A DNA stretch of 55,526 nt, filler included, from Sphacelaria rigidula (GCA_964200075.2; 2 parts of 2 records of this genome joined end to end with filler, not necessarily neighbours in it), one strand, 5' to 3'. Shown: positions 12,752 to 29,048, counted from the whole stretch's first letter. The notes: generated from the letters alone by a model not told the origin. Made by a program: numbers and translations.

Positions 12752-14504
12752 GGACGTTGCAACAAGAGGCGGTTTTGGCGTAGCGTATTTTGGGTGCGTT
12801 ATCCGGCGCTCCGACGAACGATGACGAAGGGCGAGACGAGGCTGTGGTCTAATCTCCCTACCTTTTTCTGTTGGCATGGTTACAGCTGCGATATCTCCCC
12901 CCAATGGTTCGGACACCATCACATGAAGAGTTAATTGCAAGGATGACACAAAGTCGAGCGCGATCGAGCGCTCAACAGCAATGAACAGCTGAGAACCTAG
13001 GAGACCAACCAGTACACTATCAACGCCATGAAGCCATCGGTACAATTACAAACCGAAATCGTCCTCTTTGTTGAGAGTTTTGGCGCTAAGCGCAACACTA
13101 ATGGCGGCGCCACCTGCCAGACAAGAATTATGTGTGTGTGAGAGAAAGAGACCAAGTAGGGCCCATAACCCAGAACCCCCCGAGCGCAGCATGCCCTGGC
13201 GAGCGGTTGGTGTCCACTTTGCCTTGTACCACTCCAAGATACACGCTACTCGGGTACACCGTTTTCATCATCTGGCGTGGGGGCAAAAACCCCCTTTCGT
13301 CATACCTCCCGAATGAGTACCTGTGGAGCATTGAGACGCTAAAATGCGAGCATATCCGCAAAGCTATCTGCCTGATGATGATGTTCCAGATGACACGGAT
13401 GCCAGTGTACCGGAGGTCCGGTGAGGATCCATGTACATGAAATGTACGGGACGTCAGAGATACAGGCTGCGAAAAAATGTTGGGCGTTCTCTCTCGATTC
13501 CTTCCCTTCATTTCGCTTATTTTTAAGCGATATAATGCGCAAGTTATGGGCTTCCTTCACGCGCATATGCGTTTCCCAGAGGTTCATGCATTCTGCGTAT
13601 GGGCTTCTCTCGAGGGTATTTACGGCAGTTCTGAGTATCGATGCGCATGTTCTGCGCAAATTTCTAGGAGCAGGAGCATGAGAGAATGAACTTTTCCCGC
13701 ATATCCGTCTCATTGGCCATGCTCCAAGTTGAAAAGTGCAACGTGTCGGCATTATACACACCGCAAACATACCTCGCTTAAAAGTGCTCCAGTTTCCACT
13801 GGGTTGCGGGGGTACGGAATATATACAGCAGCCCACTACCCTGTGTGTTGACTTGAGGAATTTGGTGTATAACCGCGTATATGCTGTCCTCAAGTCTCAT
13901 ACACCGCAAAATGTTTTCGCCATTTTCGCATATGCGTCGGACAAATCATACTTATACGCTGTAAGATGTATTGCGCAATATAGAGGATAACTTAAAAAAT
14001 GCAGCCAAGAAAAGGGAAAATGATCGCCGAAGGGGAGATGCCGGCAAACGTAAACCCCTAAGGTGGGGGGATAACGAACAGCAGAATTGGCCTATGTACC
14101 TCGATGGAACAAAGAACGACGAAACCTTGGCGAACAACTACACCACAGTAGAAAATTCCCGCTCCCCGTGGGTGAGAAAACGCGAGCGCTGATGCACATC
14201 GACCTCACGACTACTGCCGCAAAACGAACGCATCTTCTAGCGGTCCCGTAGCTCGAAATGTTCACGTTGGCGTGTGCCTGTGCTGTTACGGGGCTCACGC
14301 ATGCTAGCTCGGCCTTACGAAGGTCCGCTGTCATCTCTGGGAGATTGCAGCGAATGCCCGCTACGCACGGCATGGTGGTACGCTGCTGCTGCTGCTGCTA
14401 CTGCTTCTGCTGTGTGTTGGCGGATGAGCTTGTCTGGAATACTTTCGGCGGGAGGTTGGGTGGGAGGACTCGTTTGACTTTTGAGCTAGACGGGTTTTTA
14501 TTGT

Positions 14505-16760
14505 TCGGAATGACTCGCGAGACTCAGACGCTCACTCTTTGGAATGACTCGTACGACTCGAGTACTTGCTCGTCCCCACTTGTCAGGATGATGCGCATGA
14601 CTCGAGCCCTCATTTTTTTCCGGAATAATTGATATGATTCAGGTCATGACTTGTCCTAACGTTTCGGGATGATTTGCATGACGCAAGTCAGACACATCCT
14701 CATTTTTCGGGATGACTAGCGTGACTCGAGTCAGAGCCATAATTTTTTCGGAACGGCTCGTATGACTCGAGTCATGCCCTATCACCACTTTTTGGGATGA
14801 TTTATATGCTCCTTTGTATCATATATTTTTCGAATTAAAAAAAGTTTTTTTTTAATTAGTAAATGCACTTTTTAAGCCTACAAGTGTGCGAAGGTTCGTT
14901 AATTTTGAGCATATGGATATACTTATATTTTATAACAATATTACTCGTGGAATTTATTATTATTATTCTAATGCAAATAATCTGAAAAACATTTGACGTT
15001 TATTATATGGTCTTGAAGCATCTTGTGCTTTGACTTTAGCTTTTGAATTTAAAGTTTATTATCGTTCAAAAGTGTATAAGCAATTAGGTTATACTCTTAA
15101 TAGTATTTACATACATGATTCGAGTCAGACTCGTTCTCATTTTTTGGGATGACTCGTGTGAGTCGCATTAGAGTCGTCCCCATTTGGGGGGGCAACTCCT
15201 GTAACCCGGGTCAGACTCGTCGGACTTCGGGAACTGCGCGTGGAATCAAGTGGAGGTCCCGTTTATAGGTATGTCTCCCAGTCGGGGGTCTGTGATCCAC
15301 GCGCGAGCGTCTAGTCCAACGAGTATCAATGGCTTCACCCTTCAGTCGTACTTACTCGATTCATATGAGCAGGTAGGTCACAAGGTGATGATGAGCAACA
15401 GTAGGCGACGACAGCATTCGCGCAGATTCACCATCAATGTCTGAATTTCGGCATTGGCGTTGTTAGCATGTTTAGATTCGGTGAGAGTCAAAACTGGTTG
15501 TTACATATTTCCTCTGTCTAATAAGTTAGGGAAGATGAGTTTGCACAGACCCTTAAACTGTGTCCGATTCCCTTTCCGTTTCTTTATTGCGTTTTTTTAT
15601 GTGTGTGTTTGTAAAACCAACTTTTCTTTTCCCACAGATTTACCATACCCCACGCGGCCTAACTTCCGAAGAAAACCGGTCGGCCCGAAAATCGCCGCAT
15701 TCCGTCCCCCTTTTCGGGAGCAAAAACACGTCGAAAAAAACATGCAGTCGGTCTCGCCATCATTGGACTTTGATTATAGAAAGTCTCAAGCCTTTTGGAA
15801 GGCCTACTCATCGTATGTTACCCGCCTTTTCAACGTTCCTGCTCTCTGCCGCACCCTCACCCTCACCCCAATATATTCCACACTAAAGTCGTTGTCGCCT
15901 ACATTTCGGCATGTTCGGTAAACCTAACTGTCAAAACTTCCCAAACCTGGATATTTTCTACTCATTTCATGTATCGAAATATAGCTGTACTTGGTTTTTC
16001 GCCACCAGCCTCGTATGCGCTTCATCCTGCCAACACATCCAAGTGCAGCATCGTCACTGACACCGTTATACCCAAACGACCTAGTTCTCATAACTACCCT
16101 GACTTATGGGACACAGGAAGCATGTGTTCTAGAAGTACAAGACTGGGTACGACTTTGAAATATTGACTGTAAAATTCTTGCTCACTTTCAACTTCCAAGT
16201 TTACCGTCACCTCTAGTTTCTGCTATTATTCATCTTGGTCTCCGTGTCGCCGTAAGAATCGGAATGTGCGCGCTGGCGGGAGTTTAGCATCACAAACCTC
16301 AAGAGATGTGAAATATAGTAATACCCCCAAAGACACTACGAGACAATCTCAAACATCGGACGGATAAAAAGTTCCGTTTGATTCATCCTCTTTCGTAGGT
16401 AACTTCTCGTCTGACGTTGCGTTTTACCTTTTTCTCGCGAGTGCTATACCTCACAGTCGATGGAAATCTATACCTTTTACGCGTCGCCACCCAGTCATAT
16501 CGTCTTCATTTTTCTCAATGATTCGTATGACTCGAGTCATGTGGAGCTCATCATTTCCCGAATAACTCGTGTGACCCGAGCTCTTTGCGCCATTACACCT
16601 GGGAATGACTCGTATCCGCTCTGAGTAAGACTCGTCCTCATCTCTTGGAATGACTCCTATGAACTCCGGGTCAGTTTCGCTCTGTTATTTTGTTTTATGA
16701 CCCATGTGGCTCGAGTCATGATTCGTCCTCATAATGCTGAATAATGGAACGCGAGTCACC
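14505..16760. repeat. Interrupted array of ~41-44-bp ATGACTCGAGTCA-core units (clusters at 14505-14800, 15112-15235 and 16500-16760)
   Basis: Recurring TTTTCGGGATGA..ATGACTCGAGTCA, oriented opposite to the 9.9-10.5 kb array. Confidence 0.75.
14802..15110 (+). pseudogene. Organelle-type group II intron-encoded RT/maturase, domain X fragment (NUMT-like insert)
   Basis: AT-rich island. A single frame from 14802 reads LYAPLYHIFFELKKVFF*LVNALFKPTSVRRFVNFEHMDILIFYNNITRGIYYYYSNANNLKNI*RLLYGLEASCALTLAFEFKVYYRSKVYKQLG. This fits the mitochondrial-class domain X pattern (L.AP...L...GF; I...YN...RG...YYS.A.N; SCALTLA.K.K....KV.K..G). Confidence 0.85.
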
Positions 16761-17640: not shown

Positions 17641-18565
17641 ACCCCTATTCCATCGTCAAGAGTCTACTTCCGGGACGTTTTTGGTTAAGGTGACAACACT
17701 GGTGTGCGATCTTGATCAGACTGATAGACCGCCGTGCTCGCTAGCGTGCTCGACACGAACGTTTTTCAAATCAACCCTGGAGATGTCAACTTGAGCTTTG
17801 CCAATGCAATCTCCTCCTTCGGCATCCTCTGATCCCCCCCTTGGGTTGGGGTCAATGGTCTGATGACTATGGCATGCATGATCACGAGTACACCCTTAGG
17901 GTGGGGTTTCGGGAAAAGTCCCGGGTAAGGGGTGAAAAAAACAAGTGTCGAGCATGGCTGTGGCGACAAATTGGGGCAGGTTCGCCTCGCACAAATGGAT
18001 ACACTGACCAAAGCAAATCGGGCGACCTTGGAGTGATGAACGCTGACGTTCAAGGGGCTCACCTTGATCCTTGCAAGGCTTCGAAGGGGGCTCAGGACGT
18101 TCTGGAGTCGACTCTGCTTGTGTTCGGCGTCTTCATTACTTTCGCTGCTATTGCCTGACGTTCCTGCGGAAACGACGACGACAGATTGAAAATATTTCAA
18201 GTGGAGTTGTGTTTCCTGAATAGACATCGGTTCCTGAATACCGTATACGTGCAAATATCGAATAGCTCCTCTATCTACCCCAGGGATGATGGCGTTCAGG
18301 CCGTGGCAAAGTGCTGTACAGCACGGCACCGATGCGGTGCGTTGTTGCCGTACAGCCGGAACGGGAATATTTTGTACGAATCTGAGGTTTTGGGTCGGCG
18401 GACGACGAGTTGTCAAGACGGGAAGGGTTCCACTACGAGGGTGACCCGCAGCTGACCGCGCCCCACACTCACTAGTTCCGTTCAAAACCAGGCAAAACAC
18501 TGAGTCCCTGCCAGTCAGCAAAAAACACACATCAGTGGGAGGCAGCCAGTGTAGCGTACGTACGA

Positions 18566-18572
18566 AAACAAA

Positions 18573-18669
<97 letters not shown>

Positions 18670-18681
18670 CAAACAACAACA

Positions 18682-18735
<54 letters not shown>

Positions 18736-18737
18736 GC

Positions 18738-18796
<59 letters not shown>

Positions 18797-18820
18797 CGAC
18801 GACGACGACGACAACAGCAA
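18566..18820. repeat. Compound (CAA/CAG/CGA)n microsatellite, ~250 bp
   Basis: Read directly. It causes the poly-T/V/L/C pseudo-ORFs in the track. Confidence 0.97.
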
Positions 18821-20411
18821 CTCCACGTGGGGTTGCCATCGACGCGTCTGCAATCGGTCATGGTATCGACTGCTATGCCTGTAGGGTGCACCCGATACAC
18901 CATGTCACTGACCCAGCTCTCAGCGGGGACACAGCCACTCCCCAGGCGGCCCACCATCATCCTCGACTACCACACACACCAACCTCGTCGCCGCGACAAA
19001 ATCGATTCAAAAATACAGCAACAGGGAGGAGACGGGAGGGGAGCAAAAACCGGAGATGGAGGAGGGGGAAGTAGACGGGGTGATGGTGGTGGTACCAACG
19101 CACGCGGCTGTTGCGGGATCCGGTCGCAAGGTGGGGCCGACCAGGGAGGGAGGCGATGCTTCGCCAGTCACATCTACGTTTAGCGACCCGCACAGGTCGG
19201 TGGGCATCGTCGGGACACCTCAACCCGAGTCGGTAGCCCCACGCTTCTTCCAGGAGGAGGGCAGAAGTACCGACGTGAAAAGTCAAGAAAGGGTGGGAGT
19301 ATATAACAGTATTCCACACCCACCCCCGGATGTCTCAGGTCAAGTGTGACCTTTCTAGACACTTGCCTATAGCAACAGAAGCACGAGTTCGTCCCCGTCC
19401 CCCCACGCGCGGGTATCATCACCACGTTCAGTTGCCATGATTAGAGCAGTGATACCGATGTCAGCAGATAGGGTAGAGCGCGCAGCATCCATGATGAACA
19501 CGTTGTACCCTAAAAAACACTGGTACCTTTACCAGACCCCGGTAGAAGTAGCAATAACCCAATGGCCATGTTGCCAATCCCTCCTGCAGGCAGCCGTGAC
19601 TTCGGCGACGGCAGGAGGCAACCCGCAGTATCGAGCTTTTGGGTGGCACTGCTGTAAAAGCACATGTAAACACCTACAGTATCGACCCGCAGCTCATCGA
19701 TGTCGAGAAGGTGATACCGACTCAAAACAACTAAGCGAGTATAGGGAACTTTGCAGGAAATGCCCATAATCCGTGACACAAGGGCCGAAAATGGCATGGC
19801 GGTCGTGAAAAACAACCGACCCAACTCCAGTTCACACTGCGCTCGCTAGTCAATCATCTTCACAAACACGTCACAGTGCATCCGGTGATCACCCCCAAAT
19901 ACTCTGCCATGCTCTCGCTTGTCAACCGCGAGCACTTCGCAATGCACTCGCTCGTAAAACCCAAGAACAGAACTCCGGGGAGACCGAAGGGCTGAAGACA
20001 AAATGTAGTAACACACAGACTCCCACTCGGGCCGAGAAATCGAGGATAAAGTGTTGTACCGCACAGGTCCACAGCGTTATCAAATCAAGGAAGGCAAAAT
20101 CGCCTCCTGTATAGACTTTCCGAGTGACCGCAAAACCAACGACAAAAACTCGTACCGCATAGACCGCAAGTTAGGTCGACAAATCGACTCGAGTAAATTT
20201 CTCGACTCAAAGTGCCCCCAGCAGAAAACGCCCGGAGATCCCACCTGATTCGCAAGACACCGACCTCATAACCAACAGCAGCAGCACCAGATCGGGGCGC
20301 GGTGAACGGAACTGCGGTTCGATGACTGGATCATGTTTTGTTGGGACCTCAAACACACATGCCGACACGCCTGGCTCAATAACACATATAACGGTCCGCT
20401 GGGAAAGTAAA

Positions 20412-26449: not shown

Positions 26450-27716
26450 AGAACGAAGAATGCAGTGATGCACTGCATGCAGCACCGCGTGATGTACTGT
26501 ACACTTGTTAACTGTCATTGCACTTCCTCTGCGTACGAGTACAACCTGTTGAAGTGCGATTTCAGTCGCGACAACTGTCATGCATAGATGTAGTAGAGCC
26601 TTCCGACAACAGAGAGGCGGGAAGGCAAAACGTATTGGGTACTACTCACCATTCTTGATGAAAGGTGTAGTGCAACCCCAGCATGCTCCCACAACGAGAA
26701 AACTCAGCGCAGTCGTTACCGACATGACCAAAACCAACAACAGATCTCCAATACTGATGTCTCTCCGGGAAGGGATCCCTGTTAATAACACGTACTGGCG
26801 TCATGACCCAACATCCATGTTTTAACTTACTTCGCTGGGTGTATTTCGTTACCGATATTGTTTGAGCCACCAAGTCGACATCATTTGTGATATCTTGAAG
26901 AGTCACTGGAAGTCAGTAACCCTTTTTCGAATACATGCAATGGTAAGGTAGAATGCAACGCGTAAGAGCCCTCCAATCACGGGTCTGAGCAGTCACCCTA
27001 AAACTGCTTAGAAGACGCGAGCATGGATCCGCAGACACCATCAACGACTGCAGCTTGACTACAGCGTCAGTAAACGTTGCGGCTTCAATTGTTGCAACTT
27101 CGATCGTTGCGACTGGGGTGAAAGAGGAAAAAAAAGCACAATGCGTCTTCTAAGATTGAAAATGGCAAGTTCCTTGGGCGCTCGGATAGGACTGTGCATC
27201 AGACACGCGCCGAGTAGGCCGATGCTACTGCCACCGTGTTTCACAGCCGTTGCTAAGGTAGCGACATCATGTGCTACTGAGGTAACACCCGCTACTAGCC
27301 CATCCTTGACTGGCCTAGCAGGTTTGTAATCGTGTATTTAGAGCCGTGAGTGTGCCTTGGAGTTTTGAGAAAAGAACATGGATTTGCATTGGTAGGTTTG
27401 CATTTGGTTGTACATGGATTTGCGGTCGTGCTGGCCGTATACCCTTGGGAGCGGAAGATACCACCCCCTGTTCAAAGTGTAACATGCAAGAAGTATGTAC
27501 AGTAGTCAGCATCAGAAGTTTTCAGAATTCGTTGTTGTCCTTTTTTCTGAGTTTTTCTGGAGTGCCGTTCTGCACTATTACTTGAAAGTACTAGCGCCAG
27601 TAGATTTAGGGAGAAAGCGTAGGCTGCGCTCAAACTGCAGTGCTCAAGTTGGTGTTTTTGGGGCGATACGGACTTGATACCCCGTTTATCAGGAGGGTGG
27701 TATTGACCGTTGGTGG
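26450..27716 (-). mobile_element. Possible degenerate DNA-transposon (hAT-like N-terminal) remnant
   Basis: Broken minus-strand coding-like sequence with BED-like 'IYWR*YFQVIV...VHTSCMLH'. Weak. Confidence 0.2.
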
Positions 27717-27816
27717 NNNNNNNNNNNNNNNNNNNNNNNNNNNNNNNNNNNNNNNNNNNNTTAATTAATTAANNNNNNNNNNNNNNNNNNNNNNNNNNNN
27801 NNNNNNNNNNNNNNNN
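27717..27816. other. Assembly linker: 44 N + TTAATTAATTAA + 44 N
   Basis: Exactly 100 bp with a central six-frame-stop palindrome. This is an artificial contig join. Confidence 0.95.
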
Positions 27817-29048
27817 AATACAAGGAGGATACCACCCATACCCATAACCCAAACAGCCCGCAGAAGAAGGCAAGAAACAAAACATCCACACGGAAAAAGG
27901 GCACCTACACTTCGAAAGATTCGTATGAGACCGATTGAACTACAGGAGGCCTACTTGTACTGGGATCTAAGAAGTCCCCGCGTGTGACCTCTCCGACTAC
28001 TTTGCCACGTACTGGTGTATACACAGAGTAGTAACAACGAGTAAGCCGATAGTCGAAACTGTCGCATAGAACAGAGACCAATCCCAAAATAAATCTACTC
28101 TCTGGAGTGCTGTTCAAAGAGATGCTCTACAGATCCTGCGCACCGGAGACTGAACAACGCTAGATAGAAAGATCCAAAAAAGACAAGAAGAACAACAAAG
28201 GGCAGCCTGATGGCAACGAGGAAGGAAAGCGAGGAACTATGACCTCCCTCGGGTTCCGGTCAAGTAGCATCGTCATGTAAACACAACAGACAGGGCGTAT
28301 CTAGCCTACACACGGCGTAGCGCTATCAGCAAAAAACATGATCTGTTCAGAGTGTCCTATAATCAACCATGAAAACATGGGATGCCATCTGTACGTAGTT
28401 ATTACTGCTCCGATACGTTGATCTCGCTAGTTTGGGGTATGTTCATCTCGCCGATTTCCAGAATACATAACAATGCTTTCGTAAGATTGGGAGTCTAAGA
28501 TACGATTGAGAGTGAACAGCGGTTAATTCATGAATTGAATAATTTTAGAATAATGTTAGTTCCGAAAGGCCCCTCCGGGCCTAAACATGAGGCCCTACAC
28601 GCCTTCTGTAGTAGCTTACCGCTGAACCCTTTGATATCCCTAAGTAGGATTTCGACGTGTAGCAGTATTCACACGACAGTAACAGGTGTAACAAAGCGCA
28701 CACAGAGTGAAGTATTGGTCAAGTTGGAGCGAATGATGGAACTCACTCCCCATCAACGCTTGACTCTCAATGTCATGAAAACATTTTTATGTGCCGTCCA
28801 TGAAGTCCAAGAGGATATCGCAGACGGGTCACTTGTGCCACGCGTGAGACACTCATACTTTGACACAATACTGAAAGCTTTTGCTGTCCAATATTTTCAT
28901 CAGTGCACGCTGCGTTTAGCATCGCGCTTGCACAACCCGCAGGTGTCTCGGTGACAAGCCCTGTCCCTCGTTCTCCCACTCTTGACTGTAGCACAATAAA
29001 GACCTCGACACTCTTTTTTTTTTACTCTCTTCCCCACTAAAAACGTAG

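What the first reader, a model, noticed from the sequence alone, without database searches (positions are those of the whole stretch)
14802..15110. Fossil of an organellar group II intron maturase (domain X) in nuclear DNA
Seen: a sharply AT-rich ~310-bp island, missed by the ORF track, translates in one frame (two stops, no frameshift) to a convincing group II intron RT-maturase domain X (YNN.TRG...YYS.ANN...SCALTLA.E.K....KV.K.LG). It sits inside one unit of the ATGACTCGAGTCA repeat (left ...GGGATGATTTA, right TACATGATTCGAGTCA) with no flanking intron RNA or TSD, which looks like double-strand-break capture of organellar DNA. Known: group II introns are patchily distributed in brown algal mitochondria (present in Pylaiella littoralis, absent from many sequenced relatives). 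Inference: this may record an intron the host mitochondrion has since lost, or foreign organellar DNA.
Basis: partly seen in the sequence, partly recalled or inferred. Interest (0 to 1): 0.75.

Follow-up and report, generated by a model that had tools for sequence, protein, structure and literature searches.

The report
Dead organelle maturase fragment in nuclear DNA
A 300-base piece of an organelle gene for a group II intron splicing helper has been pasted into the alga's nuclear DNA and has decayed there, while the organelle still carries a working-looking copy, so this is an ordinary organelle-to-nucleus DNA transfer.

Summary
Window 14805-15105 is an AT-rich island: GC 0.25 against 0.49 for the window. 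Its frame from 14781 reads as group II intron maturase domain X (Pfam PF01348, 68.1 bits, E 1e-18). It has two stops and no frameshift, and it sits inside one unit of a ~43-bp repeat.

The interesting inference does not hold. I laid contigs of 4 public runs on 14000-16000.
- Contigs at nuclear depth, with 0 differences, bridge the left junction in 2 of 4 runs and the right junction in 3 of 4. The runs come from two studies, so this is not an assembly chimera.
- All 4 runs also hold very deep contigs, 23 to about 565 times nuclear depth, that match 14837-15105 at about 90-91% identity.
- Those deep contigs keep the frame open. AGA (Arg) stands where the nucleus has TGA.

So the host's own organelle still carries the gene. 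The island is an ordinary, not recent, dead NUMT/NUPT. It covers only residues ~234-333 of a ~400-500 aa maturase with a degenerate RT.

Whether the source is the mitochondrion or the plastid is unresolved, and so is the host species. The source gene belongs to a small unnamed clade, seen as 3 clusters among 1.84 billion representatives.

The parts
14805..15105 (+). Organelle-derived insert (NUMT/NUPT): an internal fragment of a group II intron maturase ORF (domain X), GC 0.25. The left edge is ambiguous by 4-5 nt and may start at 14801/14802.
   Evidence: Pfam PF01348 68.1 bits, E 1e-18. tblastn of P0153/P0004/P0005 hits only 14799-15101, residues 234-333 of the 403-aa P0153. High-depth contigs match 14837-15105 at about 90-91% identity.
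14853..14855 (+). In-frame TAA stop. All four relatives have Lys in this column.
   Evidence: alignment A1. That it arose from AAA is inferred; the organelle base here was not listed.
14994..14996 (+). In-frame TGA stop, a nuclear nonsense change. It is not a Trp codon of a variant code.
   Evidence: High-depth contigs in 4 of 4 runs read A at 14994, giving AGA = Arg. Relatives have R, R, K, R.
14500..14804 (+). Left part of the ~43-bp repeat array (units with an ATGACTCGAGTCA-like core). The last unit is cut after GGGATGATTTA.
   Evidence: the repeat finder families D1-D3; core scan; motif enrichment.
15106..15230 (+). Right part of the interrupted unit (TTTACATAC then ATGATTCGAGTCA) and the rest of the array. 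Positions 15106-15113 are duplicated target or filler.
   Evidence: The organelle contigs depart from the window after 15105 (loose ends in 4 of 4 runs).
14800..14804 (.). ATTTA, the left copy of a 5-bp direct repeat flanking the insert (right copy at 15105-15109). It could be microhomology, a short target duplication, or chance.
   Evidence: Read directly. Not significant on its own in AT-rich sequence.

Best explanation
A ~300-bp internal piece of the host alga's own organellar group II intron maturase gene (domain X region) was captured into a chromosomal break. The break lay inside one unit of a ~43-bp nuclear repeat, and the capture was most likely by end-joining repair, which is the usual origin of NUMTs and NUPTs.

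The piece has no promoter, start, RT domain or intron RNA. It has since drifted as neutral DNA, acquiring two stop codons, loss of one codon, and Lys-to-Glu changes at columns invariant in relatives. It does nothing today.

The organelle still holds an open-frame copy about 9-10% different in DNA. The transfer is therefore old rather than recent, but it is not a relic of a lost intron.

Shown: the domain X homology, the nuclear context, the bridged junctions, the high-copy open-frame counterpart in the same runs, and the direction of several changes. Inferred: that the high-copy genome is an organelle of the same organism, which organelle it is, and the end-joining mechanism.
For: (1) Domain X: PF01348, 68.1 bits against a 20.8 cut-off. 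Best relatives are 73%, 67% and 57% identical.

(2) Only residues 234-333 of the 403-aa P0153 are present anywhere in the window. No group II intron RNA was found.

(3) Real junctions, from contigs with 0 differences at nuclear depth.
- X1 record 2: 14416-14918 at 59x. X1 record 3: 14892-16000 at 69x.
- X3 (a different study) record 10: 14416-14911. X3 record 13: 15016-16000.
- X4 record 20: 14892-15297.
- The left junction is bridged in 2 of 4 runs and the right junction in 3 of 4.
- No joint skipping the island was seen in any of the 4 runs.

(4) Host counterpart.
- X5 record 27 covers 14837-15105 with 23 other letters plus a 3-nt insertion.
- X4 record 21 covers 14892-15105 with 15 other letters plus 3 nt.
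- Depths against the nuclear flanks: X1 15,846 vs 69; X3 about 17,500 vs 31; X4 307 vs about 13.5; X5 159 vs about 3.
- The ratio therefore ranges from about 23 to about 565 between runs. An organelle genome behaves this way; a fixed-copy nuclear repeat does not.

(5) Applying the 15 listed substitutions and the 3-nt insertion to 14868-15105 removes the TGA and gives an open frame. That frame is slightly closer to the relatives: 62 of 78 identical to P0003, against 59 of 77 for the nuclear copy.

(6) Of the 15 substitutions, 9 are nonsynonymous and 6 synonymous. At residues 30, 55, 72, 79 and 89 of P0002 the organelle state equals that of all four relatives, or three of four at residue 30. So those changes, including the stop and two K-to-E, are nuclear-derived.

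(7) The 30-letter loose ends of the deep contigs read on in the same frame on both sides without stops and resemble P0003/P0153. This is my reading by eye and counts as inference.

(8) The window fragment forms a clade with P0003, P0153, P0004 and P0005, with SH-aLRT 100.
Against: - The deep contigs were seen only as alignments and 30-letter ends. I could not fetch them, so no organellar neighbour gene or intron RNA was seen. 'Organelle of the same organism' rests on depth, composition and co-occurrence in 4 of 4 runs.
- One of those runs is labelled a metagenome, and field algae carry other organisms.
- About 9-10% divergence is high for a NUMT/NUPT from the current host lineage unless this intron ORF evolves fast. 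About 77% identity at the left end (14810-14839) is my count by eye.
- At residue 48, and possibly 98, the nuclear copy keeps the state of the relatives while the organelle copy is derived. Part of the divergence is therefore on the organelle side.
- No empty-site allele was found, so the insertion mechanism and exact edges remain inferred.
- The 5-bp flanking repeat could hint at a staggered-cut mechanism rather than plain end joining.
Confidence: 0.85

Rival explanations
1. One reading: the fragment records a group II intron that the host organelle has since lost, or DNA captured from a foreign organelle (another species, a symbiont or prey).
For: - The nuclear copy is only about 90-91% identical to the deep copy, which is not near-identical.
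- At residue 48 the nuclear copy keeps the relatives' state and the deep copy does not.
- No named close relative exists in the protein collections, so the donor cannot be named.
Against: - A deep, open-frame counterpart is present in 4 of 4 runs from 2 studies that hold the nuclear locus.
- That counterpart is much closer to the nuclear copy (about 87% at protein level over 79 residues) than any other sequence among 1.84 billion representatives; the best of those is 73%.
- The stops and K-to-E changes are explained by decay after transfer from that very gene.
Confidence: 0.06
2. The deep contigs come from an organelle of a different organism that always accompanies the alga (an epiphyte, an endophyte, or a related alga in the sample). 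In that case the host's own organelle status would be unknown.
For: - One run is labelled 'algae metagenome'.
- The ratio of deep to nuclear depth varies 25-fold between runs. A variable contaminant would also show this.
Against: - The counterpart is 23 to about 565 times deeper than the host's nuclear DNA in every one of the 4 runs. A contaminant organelle would have to out-number the host nucleus in all of them.
- It is also the nearest known relative of the nuclear fragment.
Confidence: 0.06
3. Assembly artefact: an organellar read or contig was wrongly joined into a nuclear scaffold.
For: The scaffold has a gap with an artificial linker elsewhere (27718-27816). This shows that it was scaffolded.
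Against: - Independent contigs at nuclear depth with 0 differences cross the left junction in X1 and X3, and the right junction in X1, X3 and X4. X3 is from another study.
- The nuclear version differs from the deep version at 23 or more positions and carries stops. It is therefore a distinct molecule, not a mis-joined organelle read.
Confidence: 0.01
4. A functional nuclear maturase gene or exon (like plant nMAT genes), or a group II intron that retrohomed into nuclear DNA.
For: There is precedent: land plants have nuclear genes derived from mitochondrial maturases. This is established knowledge, recalled.
Against: - Two in-frame stops, and one lost codon relative to relatives.
- Only about 100 of 400-500 residues are present.
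- No RT domain and no intron RNA.
- The edges fall inside the ORF, not at intron ends.
Confidence: 0.01

Closest known systems
NUMTs / NUPTs (nuclear copies of mitochondrial or plastid DNA, 'norgDNA') inserted at double-strand breaks by end joining
   Same: - A short, non-coding-in-context organelle fragment inside nuclear DNA.
- Organelle-like base composition.
- Decay by point changes.
- Edges unrelated to gene or intron borders.
- Little or no target duplication.
- The source gene is still present in the organelle.
   Different: Nothing essential. The source organelle is unresolved. Divergence of about 9-10% makes it older than the near-identical NUMTs usually noticed. A 5-bp ATTTA repeat at the edges is ambiguous.
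Degenerate organellar maturases such as plant MatR and MatK (domain X kept, RT motifs eroded); recalled knowledge
   Same: - The source gene's clade (P0153, P0004, P0005) has a strong domain X, PF01348 at E 1e-20 to 1e-25.
- Its RT is eroded: no RVT_1 match reaches the Pfam cut-off (16.3 vs 29.6 bits in one of four sequences), and TIGR04416 scores 26-83 bits against a 300-bit cut-off.
- The YADD position reads differently in P0153 and P0004.
   Different: - No MatK_N domain.
- Not close to any named protein.
- It forms its own clade on a long stem.
- The host gene and intron are unknown.
Mitochondrial group II intron RT-maturases of algae (named neighbours: Fragilaria crotonensis mitochondrion, Rhodomonas salina orf762, Chromochloris zofingiensis, Jenufa minuta)
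   Same: - Same Pfam family.
- 41-51% identity over domain X.
   Different: - Those are 588-762 aa, with full RT.
- The branching order among them is unresolved on 102 columns.
Florideophyte red-algal plastid trnMe intron RT/mat (PMC3607583; abstract and matching passages read)
   Same: The paper describes it as a fast-evolving intron ORF with putative RT domains and a clear domain X, stably kept in an AT-rich plastid, and it was missing from the annotation of an earlier published plastid genome. That would fit an unnamed clade.
   Different: - This is a lead only. No sequence of it was available to compare.
- The paper places it in the cyanobacterial/plastid radiation, whereas the named neighbours found here are largely from mitochondrial records (organelle named by the source only for Fragilaria; recalled for Rhodomonas and Chromochloris; not known for Jenufa).

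Membership tests
Group II intron maturase domain X (Pfam PF01348 Intron_maturas2) | Profile match above the curated gathering score | tested here: met
   68.1 bits against a 20.8 cut-off, E 1e-18, profile positions 6-105 of 140.
Group II intron maturase domain X (Pfam PF01348 Intron_maturas2) | Uninterrupted reading frame as part of a full intron-encoded protein (RT domain upstream) | tested here: not met
   TAA at 14853 and TGA at 14994. Only residues 234-333 of the 403-aa P0153 are present in the window.
Group II intron (mobile element) | Intron RNA domains (for example V/VI) flanking the ORF | tested here: not met
   Rfam gave 0 matches at gathering score over the window. The permissive search of 14400-15500 found no group II intron match. 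The flanks are a 43-bp nuclear repeat.
NUMT/NUPT (nuclear organellar DNA) | Homologous sequence present in the host's own organelle genome | tested here: met
   Contigs 23 to about 565 times deeper than the nuclear flanks match 14837-15105 at about 90-91% identity in 4 of 4 runs. That these contigs are the host's organelle is inferred from depth, AT content and the open frame. No organelle genome was available.
NUMT/NUPT (nuclear organellar DNA) | Physically joined to nuclear DNA (junctions bridged by independent data) | tested here: met
   Nuclear-depth contigs with 0 differences bridge the left junction in 2 of 4 runs and the right junction in 3 of 4, across two studies.
NUMT/NUPT (nuclear organellar DNA) | Non-functional, neutrally decaying copy | tested here: met
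   Two stops and one codon missing relative to relatives. K-to-E changes at two columns invariant in relatives, where the organelle copy keeps K.
NUMT/NUPT (nuclear organellar DNA) | End-joining type junctions (microhomology or filler, no long TSD) | tested here: inconclusive
   A 5-bp ATTTA repeat at both edges and about 4 extra bases at the right edge. No empty-site allele was seen in the 4 runs, so the pre-insertion sequence is unknown.
Specifically mitochondrial origin (NUMT rather than NUPT) | Match to the mitochondrial rather than the plastid genome of the host | not testable with these tools
   No genome is held and the deep contigs cannot be fetched. Indirect only: of the four named neighbours, the record itself says mitochondrion only for Fragilaria; mitochondrial origin of the Rhodomonas and Chromochloris records is recalled, and that of Jenufa is unknown. 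Relatives are open under the standard code.
Nuclear-encoded functional maturase (nMAT-like) | Complete open gene | tested here: not met
   A fragment with stops.

The most novel reading that the evidence does not exclude
The source gene belongs to a so far unnamed clade of algal organellar maturases with an eroded RT domain. Only 3 clusters lie above 50% identity among 1.84 billion representatives, and none carries a name. This may be a matK/MatR-like 'domesticated' splicing factor tied to one stable intron in a seaweed lineage.

The nuclear fossil would then be a dated snapshot of an earlier state of a fast-evolving organelle gene. It keeps the ancestral state at one site or more where today's organelle copy has changed.
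Probability: 0.3. Interest if true: 0.3.

Novelty: new member of a known kind. Interest (0 to 1): 0.15.

Why it matters
It matters little beyond annotation. The locus should be masked or labelled as organelle-derived pseudogene DNA, not as a gene and not as evidence of intron loss or foreign DNA.

There are two minor uses:
- It is a clean example of organelle DNA capture inside a tandem repeat in an alga.
- Compared with the living organelle copy, it gives a handful of polarised changes. These could help to calibrate how fast this intron-encoded maturase evolves.

The unnamed maturase clade may deserve a look by people who annotate algal organelle genomes.

Tried and rejected
- **TGA as Trp (code 4).** Tried and rejected. 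The deep copy reads AGA and relatives have R/K.
- **Own genome search.** No genome is held for this window.
- **Naming the source gene.**
  - The search for homologous proteins with the fragment ('longer') scored none of 55 candidates.
  - With P0004 it returned only itself and two relatives at 24-25% identity.
  - With P0153 residues 228-340 it scored none of 96 candidates.
  - Cluster look-ups of 28 hits gave no name for the three closest. Only four organism names appeared among the more distant hits.
- **Context from related loci.**
  - Metagenome contigs gave 3 loci at 18-25% identity (L001-L003), which I did not examine further.
  - Genome contigs gave 0 of 214 candidates.
  - Viral contigs gave 0 of 321 candidates.
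- **ESM Atlas with P0004.** Only generic maturase clusters.
- **Host identification from coding sequence.** Pfam found nothing in 5 of the longest ORFs. The 15 ORFs of >=150 aa look non-coding or low-complexity.
- **Expression.** No RNA holder was listed.
- **Empty-site allele.** No joint across the island in any of the 4 runs. Contigs can hide rare variants.
- **Literature.**
  - Search 36 (group II intron / maturase / Phaeophyceae / mitochondrial genome) was seen as a listing only and had nothing specific.
  - Search 45 (NUMTs/NUPTs in seaweeds) was poorly targeted and gave nothing usable.
  - Search 37 led to PMC3607583 (passages read), which I kept as an untested lead.
- **Supplements** were not consulted.

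Full report
**What is there**

The window has an overall GC of 0.489. Between about 14805 and 15105 it falls to 0.249. This is the only genuine AT-rich island in the 55.5 kb. The other low-GC stretch (27631-27911) is an assembly gap of N with an artificial linker.

On the + strand, the frame starting at 14781 has two stops and no frameshift: TAA at 14853-14855 and TGA at 14994-14996. Read through, it matches Pfam PF01348 (Intron_maturas2, domain X) at 68.1 bits against a curated cut-off of 20.8, E 1e-18, over profile positions 6-105 of 140.

An exhaustive phmmer search of 1.84 billion representative proteins gave 322 hits at E<=1e-3.
- P0003: 172 aa, 73% identity, E 1.2e-37.
- P0004: 508 aa, 67% identity.
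- P0005: 466 aa, 57% identity.
- After these there is a gap down to 41-51% identity.

**The setting**

The island splits one unit of a ~43-bp repeat array running from about 14500 to 15230. The units have an ATGACTCGAGTCA-like core.
- The motif with <=1 mismatch occurs 8 times in the window against 0.08 expected, and 0 of 100 shuffles reached 8.
- Repeat families D1-D3 were found, and the unit anatomy is.
- The cut unit reads GGGATGATTTA on the left. On the right it resumes with ...TTTACATAC ATGATTCGAGTCA.

No group II intron RNA lies beside the island. Rfam gave 0 matches at gathering score and only one chance-level unrelated match in a permissive search of 14400-15500.

tblastn of the three full-length relatives against the whole window hits only 14799-15101, which corresponds to residues 234-333 of the 403-aa P0153. 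Only an internal ~100-codon piece of a 400-500-codon gene is therefore present. blastn of the island against the window found no second copy.

**Is it real, and is it nuclear?**

I laid Logan contigs of four public runs that hold this stretch on 14000-16000, at >=80% likeness. The runs were X1, X4 and X5, labelled with one coded organism from one study, and X3, labelled 'algae metagenome' from another study.

Contigs with 0 differences at the depth of the flanks cross the junctions.
- X1 record 2: 14416-14918 at 59x. X1 record 3: 14892-16000 at 69x.
- X3 record 10: 14416-14911. X3 record 13: 15016-16000.
- X4 record 20: 14892-15297.

X5 record 26 reaches only 13 nt into the island. No joint skipping the island was reported in any run.

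One of these runs may be the source of the assembly, but X3 is from a different study. An assembly chimera is therefore excluded for practical purposes.

**The decisive result**

All 4 runs also contain contigs of far greater depth that match only the island.
- X5 record 27 covers 14837-15105 with 23 other letters and a 3-nt insertion, about 90% identity.
- X4 records 19 and 21 cover 14837-14921 (8 other letters) and 14892-15105 (15 other letters plus 3 nt).
- X1 and X3 show the same substitutions on shorter contigs (table 3).

Depths of these contigs against the nuclear flanks:

| Run | Deep contigs | Nuclear flanks |
|---|---|---|
| X1 | 15,846 | 69 |
| X3 | about 17,500 | 31 |
| X4 | 307 | about 13.5 |
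| X5 | 159 | about 3 |

The ratio runs from about 23 to about 565 and changes from run to run. That is the behaviour of an organelle genome, not of a nuclear repeat with a fixed copy number.

Beyond 14837 and 15105 the deep contigs run on into sequence unlike the window, with loose ends in all 4 runs. Read by eye in the island's frame, the 30 letters shown on each side have no stop and resemble the corresponding parts of P0003/P0153. This is inference.

**Direction of change**

I applied the 15 listed substitutions and the insertion to 14868-15105 by script. The result is an open frame of about 80 codons. It is slightly closer to the relatives than the nuclear copy: 62 of 78 identical to P0003, against 59 of 77.

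Of the 15 substitutions, 9 are nonsynonymous and 6 synonymous, and 10 of 15 are transitions.

The nuclear TGA corresponds to AGA (Arg) in the deep copy, and relatives have R, R, K, R. It is a nonsense change in the nucleus, not a Trp codon of a variant code.

Two GAA (Glu) codons in the nucleus correspond to AAA (Lys) in the deep copy, at columns invariant in the four relatives. Changes at residues 30 and 55 are likewise nuclear-derived.

At residue 48 the nuclear copy keeps the relatives' Leu and the deep copy has Phe. So the organelle gene has also moved since the transfer. Three further sites are ambiguous.

The nuclear copy also lacks one codon that all relatives have (KKV-FF against KKRGFF). 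Its TAA sits where relatives have Lys.

**Explanation**

This is a NUMT or NUPT. A ~300-bp internal fragment of the host's own organellar group II intron maturase gene was captured at a chromosome break inside a tandem repeat and has decayed as neutral DNA.

The mechanism, end-joining capture, is inferred from several points:
- the edges fall inside the ORF;
- there is no intron RNA;
- there is no long target duplication.

A 5-bp ATTTA stands at both edges (14800-14804 and 15105-15109), and about 4 extra bases stand at the right edge. With no empty-site allele available, this could be microhomology, a short duplication, filler or chance.

At about 9-10% DNA divergence the insertion is not recent, although part of the divergence is on the organelle side.

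**What it is not**

- It is not evidence for an intron that the organelle has lost.
- It does not need a foreign donor. The deep copy in the same runs is much closer to it (about 87% protein identity over 79 residues) than anything else in 1.84 billion representatives (73% at best).
- It is not a functional nuclear maturase and not a retrohomed intron.

**The source gene**

The window fragment, P0003, its cluster mate P0153 (403 aa), P0004 and P0005 form a clade with SH-aLRT 100 on a long stem of 0.76. The tree has 73 rows and 102 columns, so deeper branching is unresolved.

These proteins have a strong domain X (E 1e-20 to 1e-25) and an eroded RT.
- No RVT_1 match reaches the Pfam cut-off; the only one is 16.3 bits against 29.6, in P0153.
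- TIGR04416 scores 26-83 bits against a cut-off of 300.

None carries a name, and all come from ENA or Logan assemblies.

Named, more distant neighbours at 41-51% identity are:
- Fragilaria crotonensis, labelled mitochondrion;
- Rhodomonas salina orf762;
- Chromochloris zofingiensis;
- Jenufa minuta.

That the Rhodomonas and Chromochloris records are mitochondrial is recalled, not shown by a call.

**Which organelle?**

This is unresolved; I put it at roughly 55:45 for mitochondrion over plastid. One untested lead is the fast-evolving RT/mat ORF in the plastid trnMe intron of florideophyte red algae, which was missing from the annotation of an earlier published plastid genome (PMC3607583, abstract and passages read).

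The host species could not be determined. No genome is held, run labels are coded, and no conserved protein was found in the ORFs tested. The brown-alga premise therefore remains untested.

**Limits**

- The deep contigs could not be fetched, so no organellar neighbour gene was seen.
- Logan contigs drop rare variants, so the absence of an empty-site allele is weak evidence.
- One search lists only part of its rows (139 pieces and 90 loose ends were not shown).

**Verdict**

The finding is ordinary: a dead, moderately old fragment of the host's own organelle DNA in the nucleus. Interest 0.15.

Noticed in passing
window 16500-16760: A second block of the same ~43-bp repeat (ATGACTCGAGTCA-like cores at 16527 and 16707), about 1.3 kb downstream of the first array and in the same orientation. 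It may be a dispersed satellite or the subterminal repeats of a transposon.
   Followed up: partly
window 27718-27816: An assembly gap: two runs of N (88 N in all) around the artificial linker TTAATTAATTAA. The window is therefore a scaffold, not one contig.
   Followed up: yes
window 15608-15940: Summed contig depth rises to 176-1,779 in X1 against 69 in the flanks, with many variant contigs and a 6-bp length variant at 15852 in a CACCCT repeat. This looks like a dispersed nuclear repeat family.
   Followed up: no
window 14855-14918 (X3 record 11): A 761-nt contig at nuclear-like depth (31.9) matches this part of the island with 9 differences in 64 nt. It could be a second, older nuclear fragment of the same organelle gene, or a low-abundance relative in that metagenome.
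   Followed up: no
window 18535-18839: A long GTn/GCn-type triplet microsatellite gives poly-Val / poly-Thr / poly-Ala pseudo-ORFs on both strands. The 357-aa ORF is probably not a gene.
   Followed up: no
window 14382-14412: A (GCT)10 microsatellite. Logan contigs of all runs break here.
   Followed up: no
L001, L002 (JGI metagenome contigs of 55 kb and 53 kb): These carry RT-maturase ORFs only 24-25% identical to the clade. They may be organelle-sized contigs. They were not examined.
   Followed up: no
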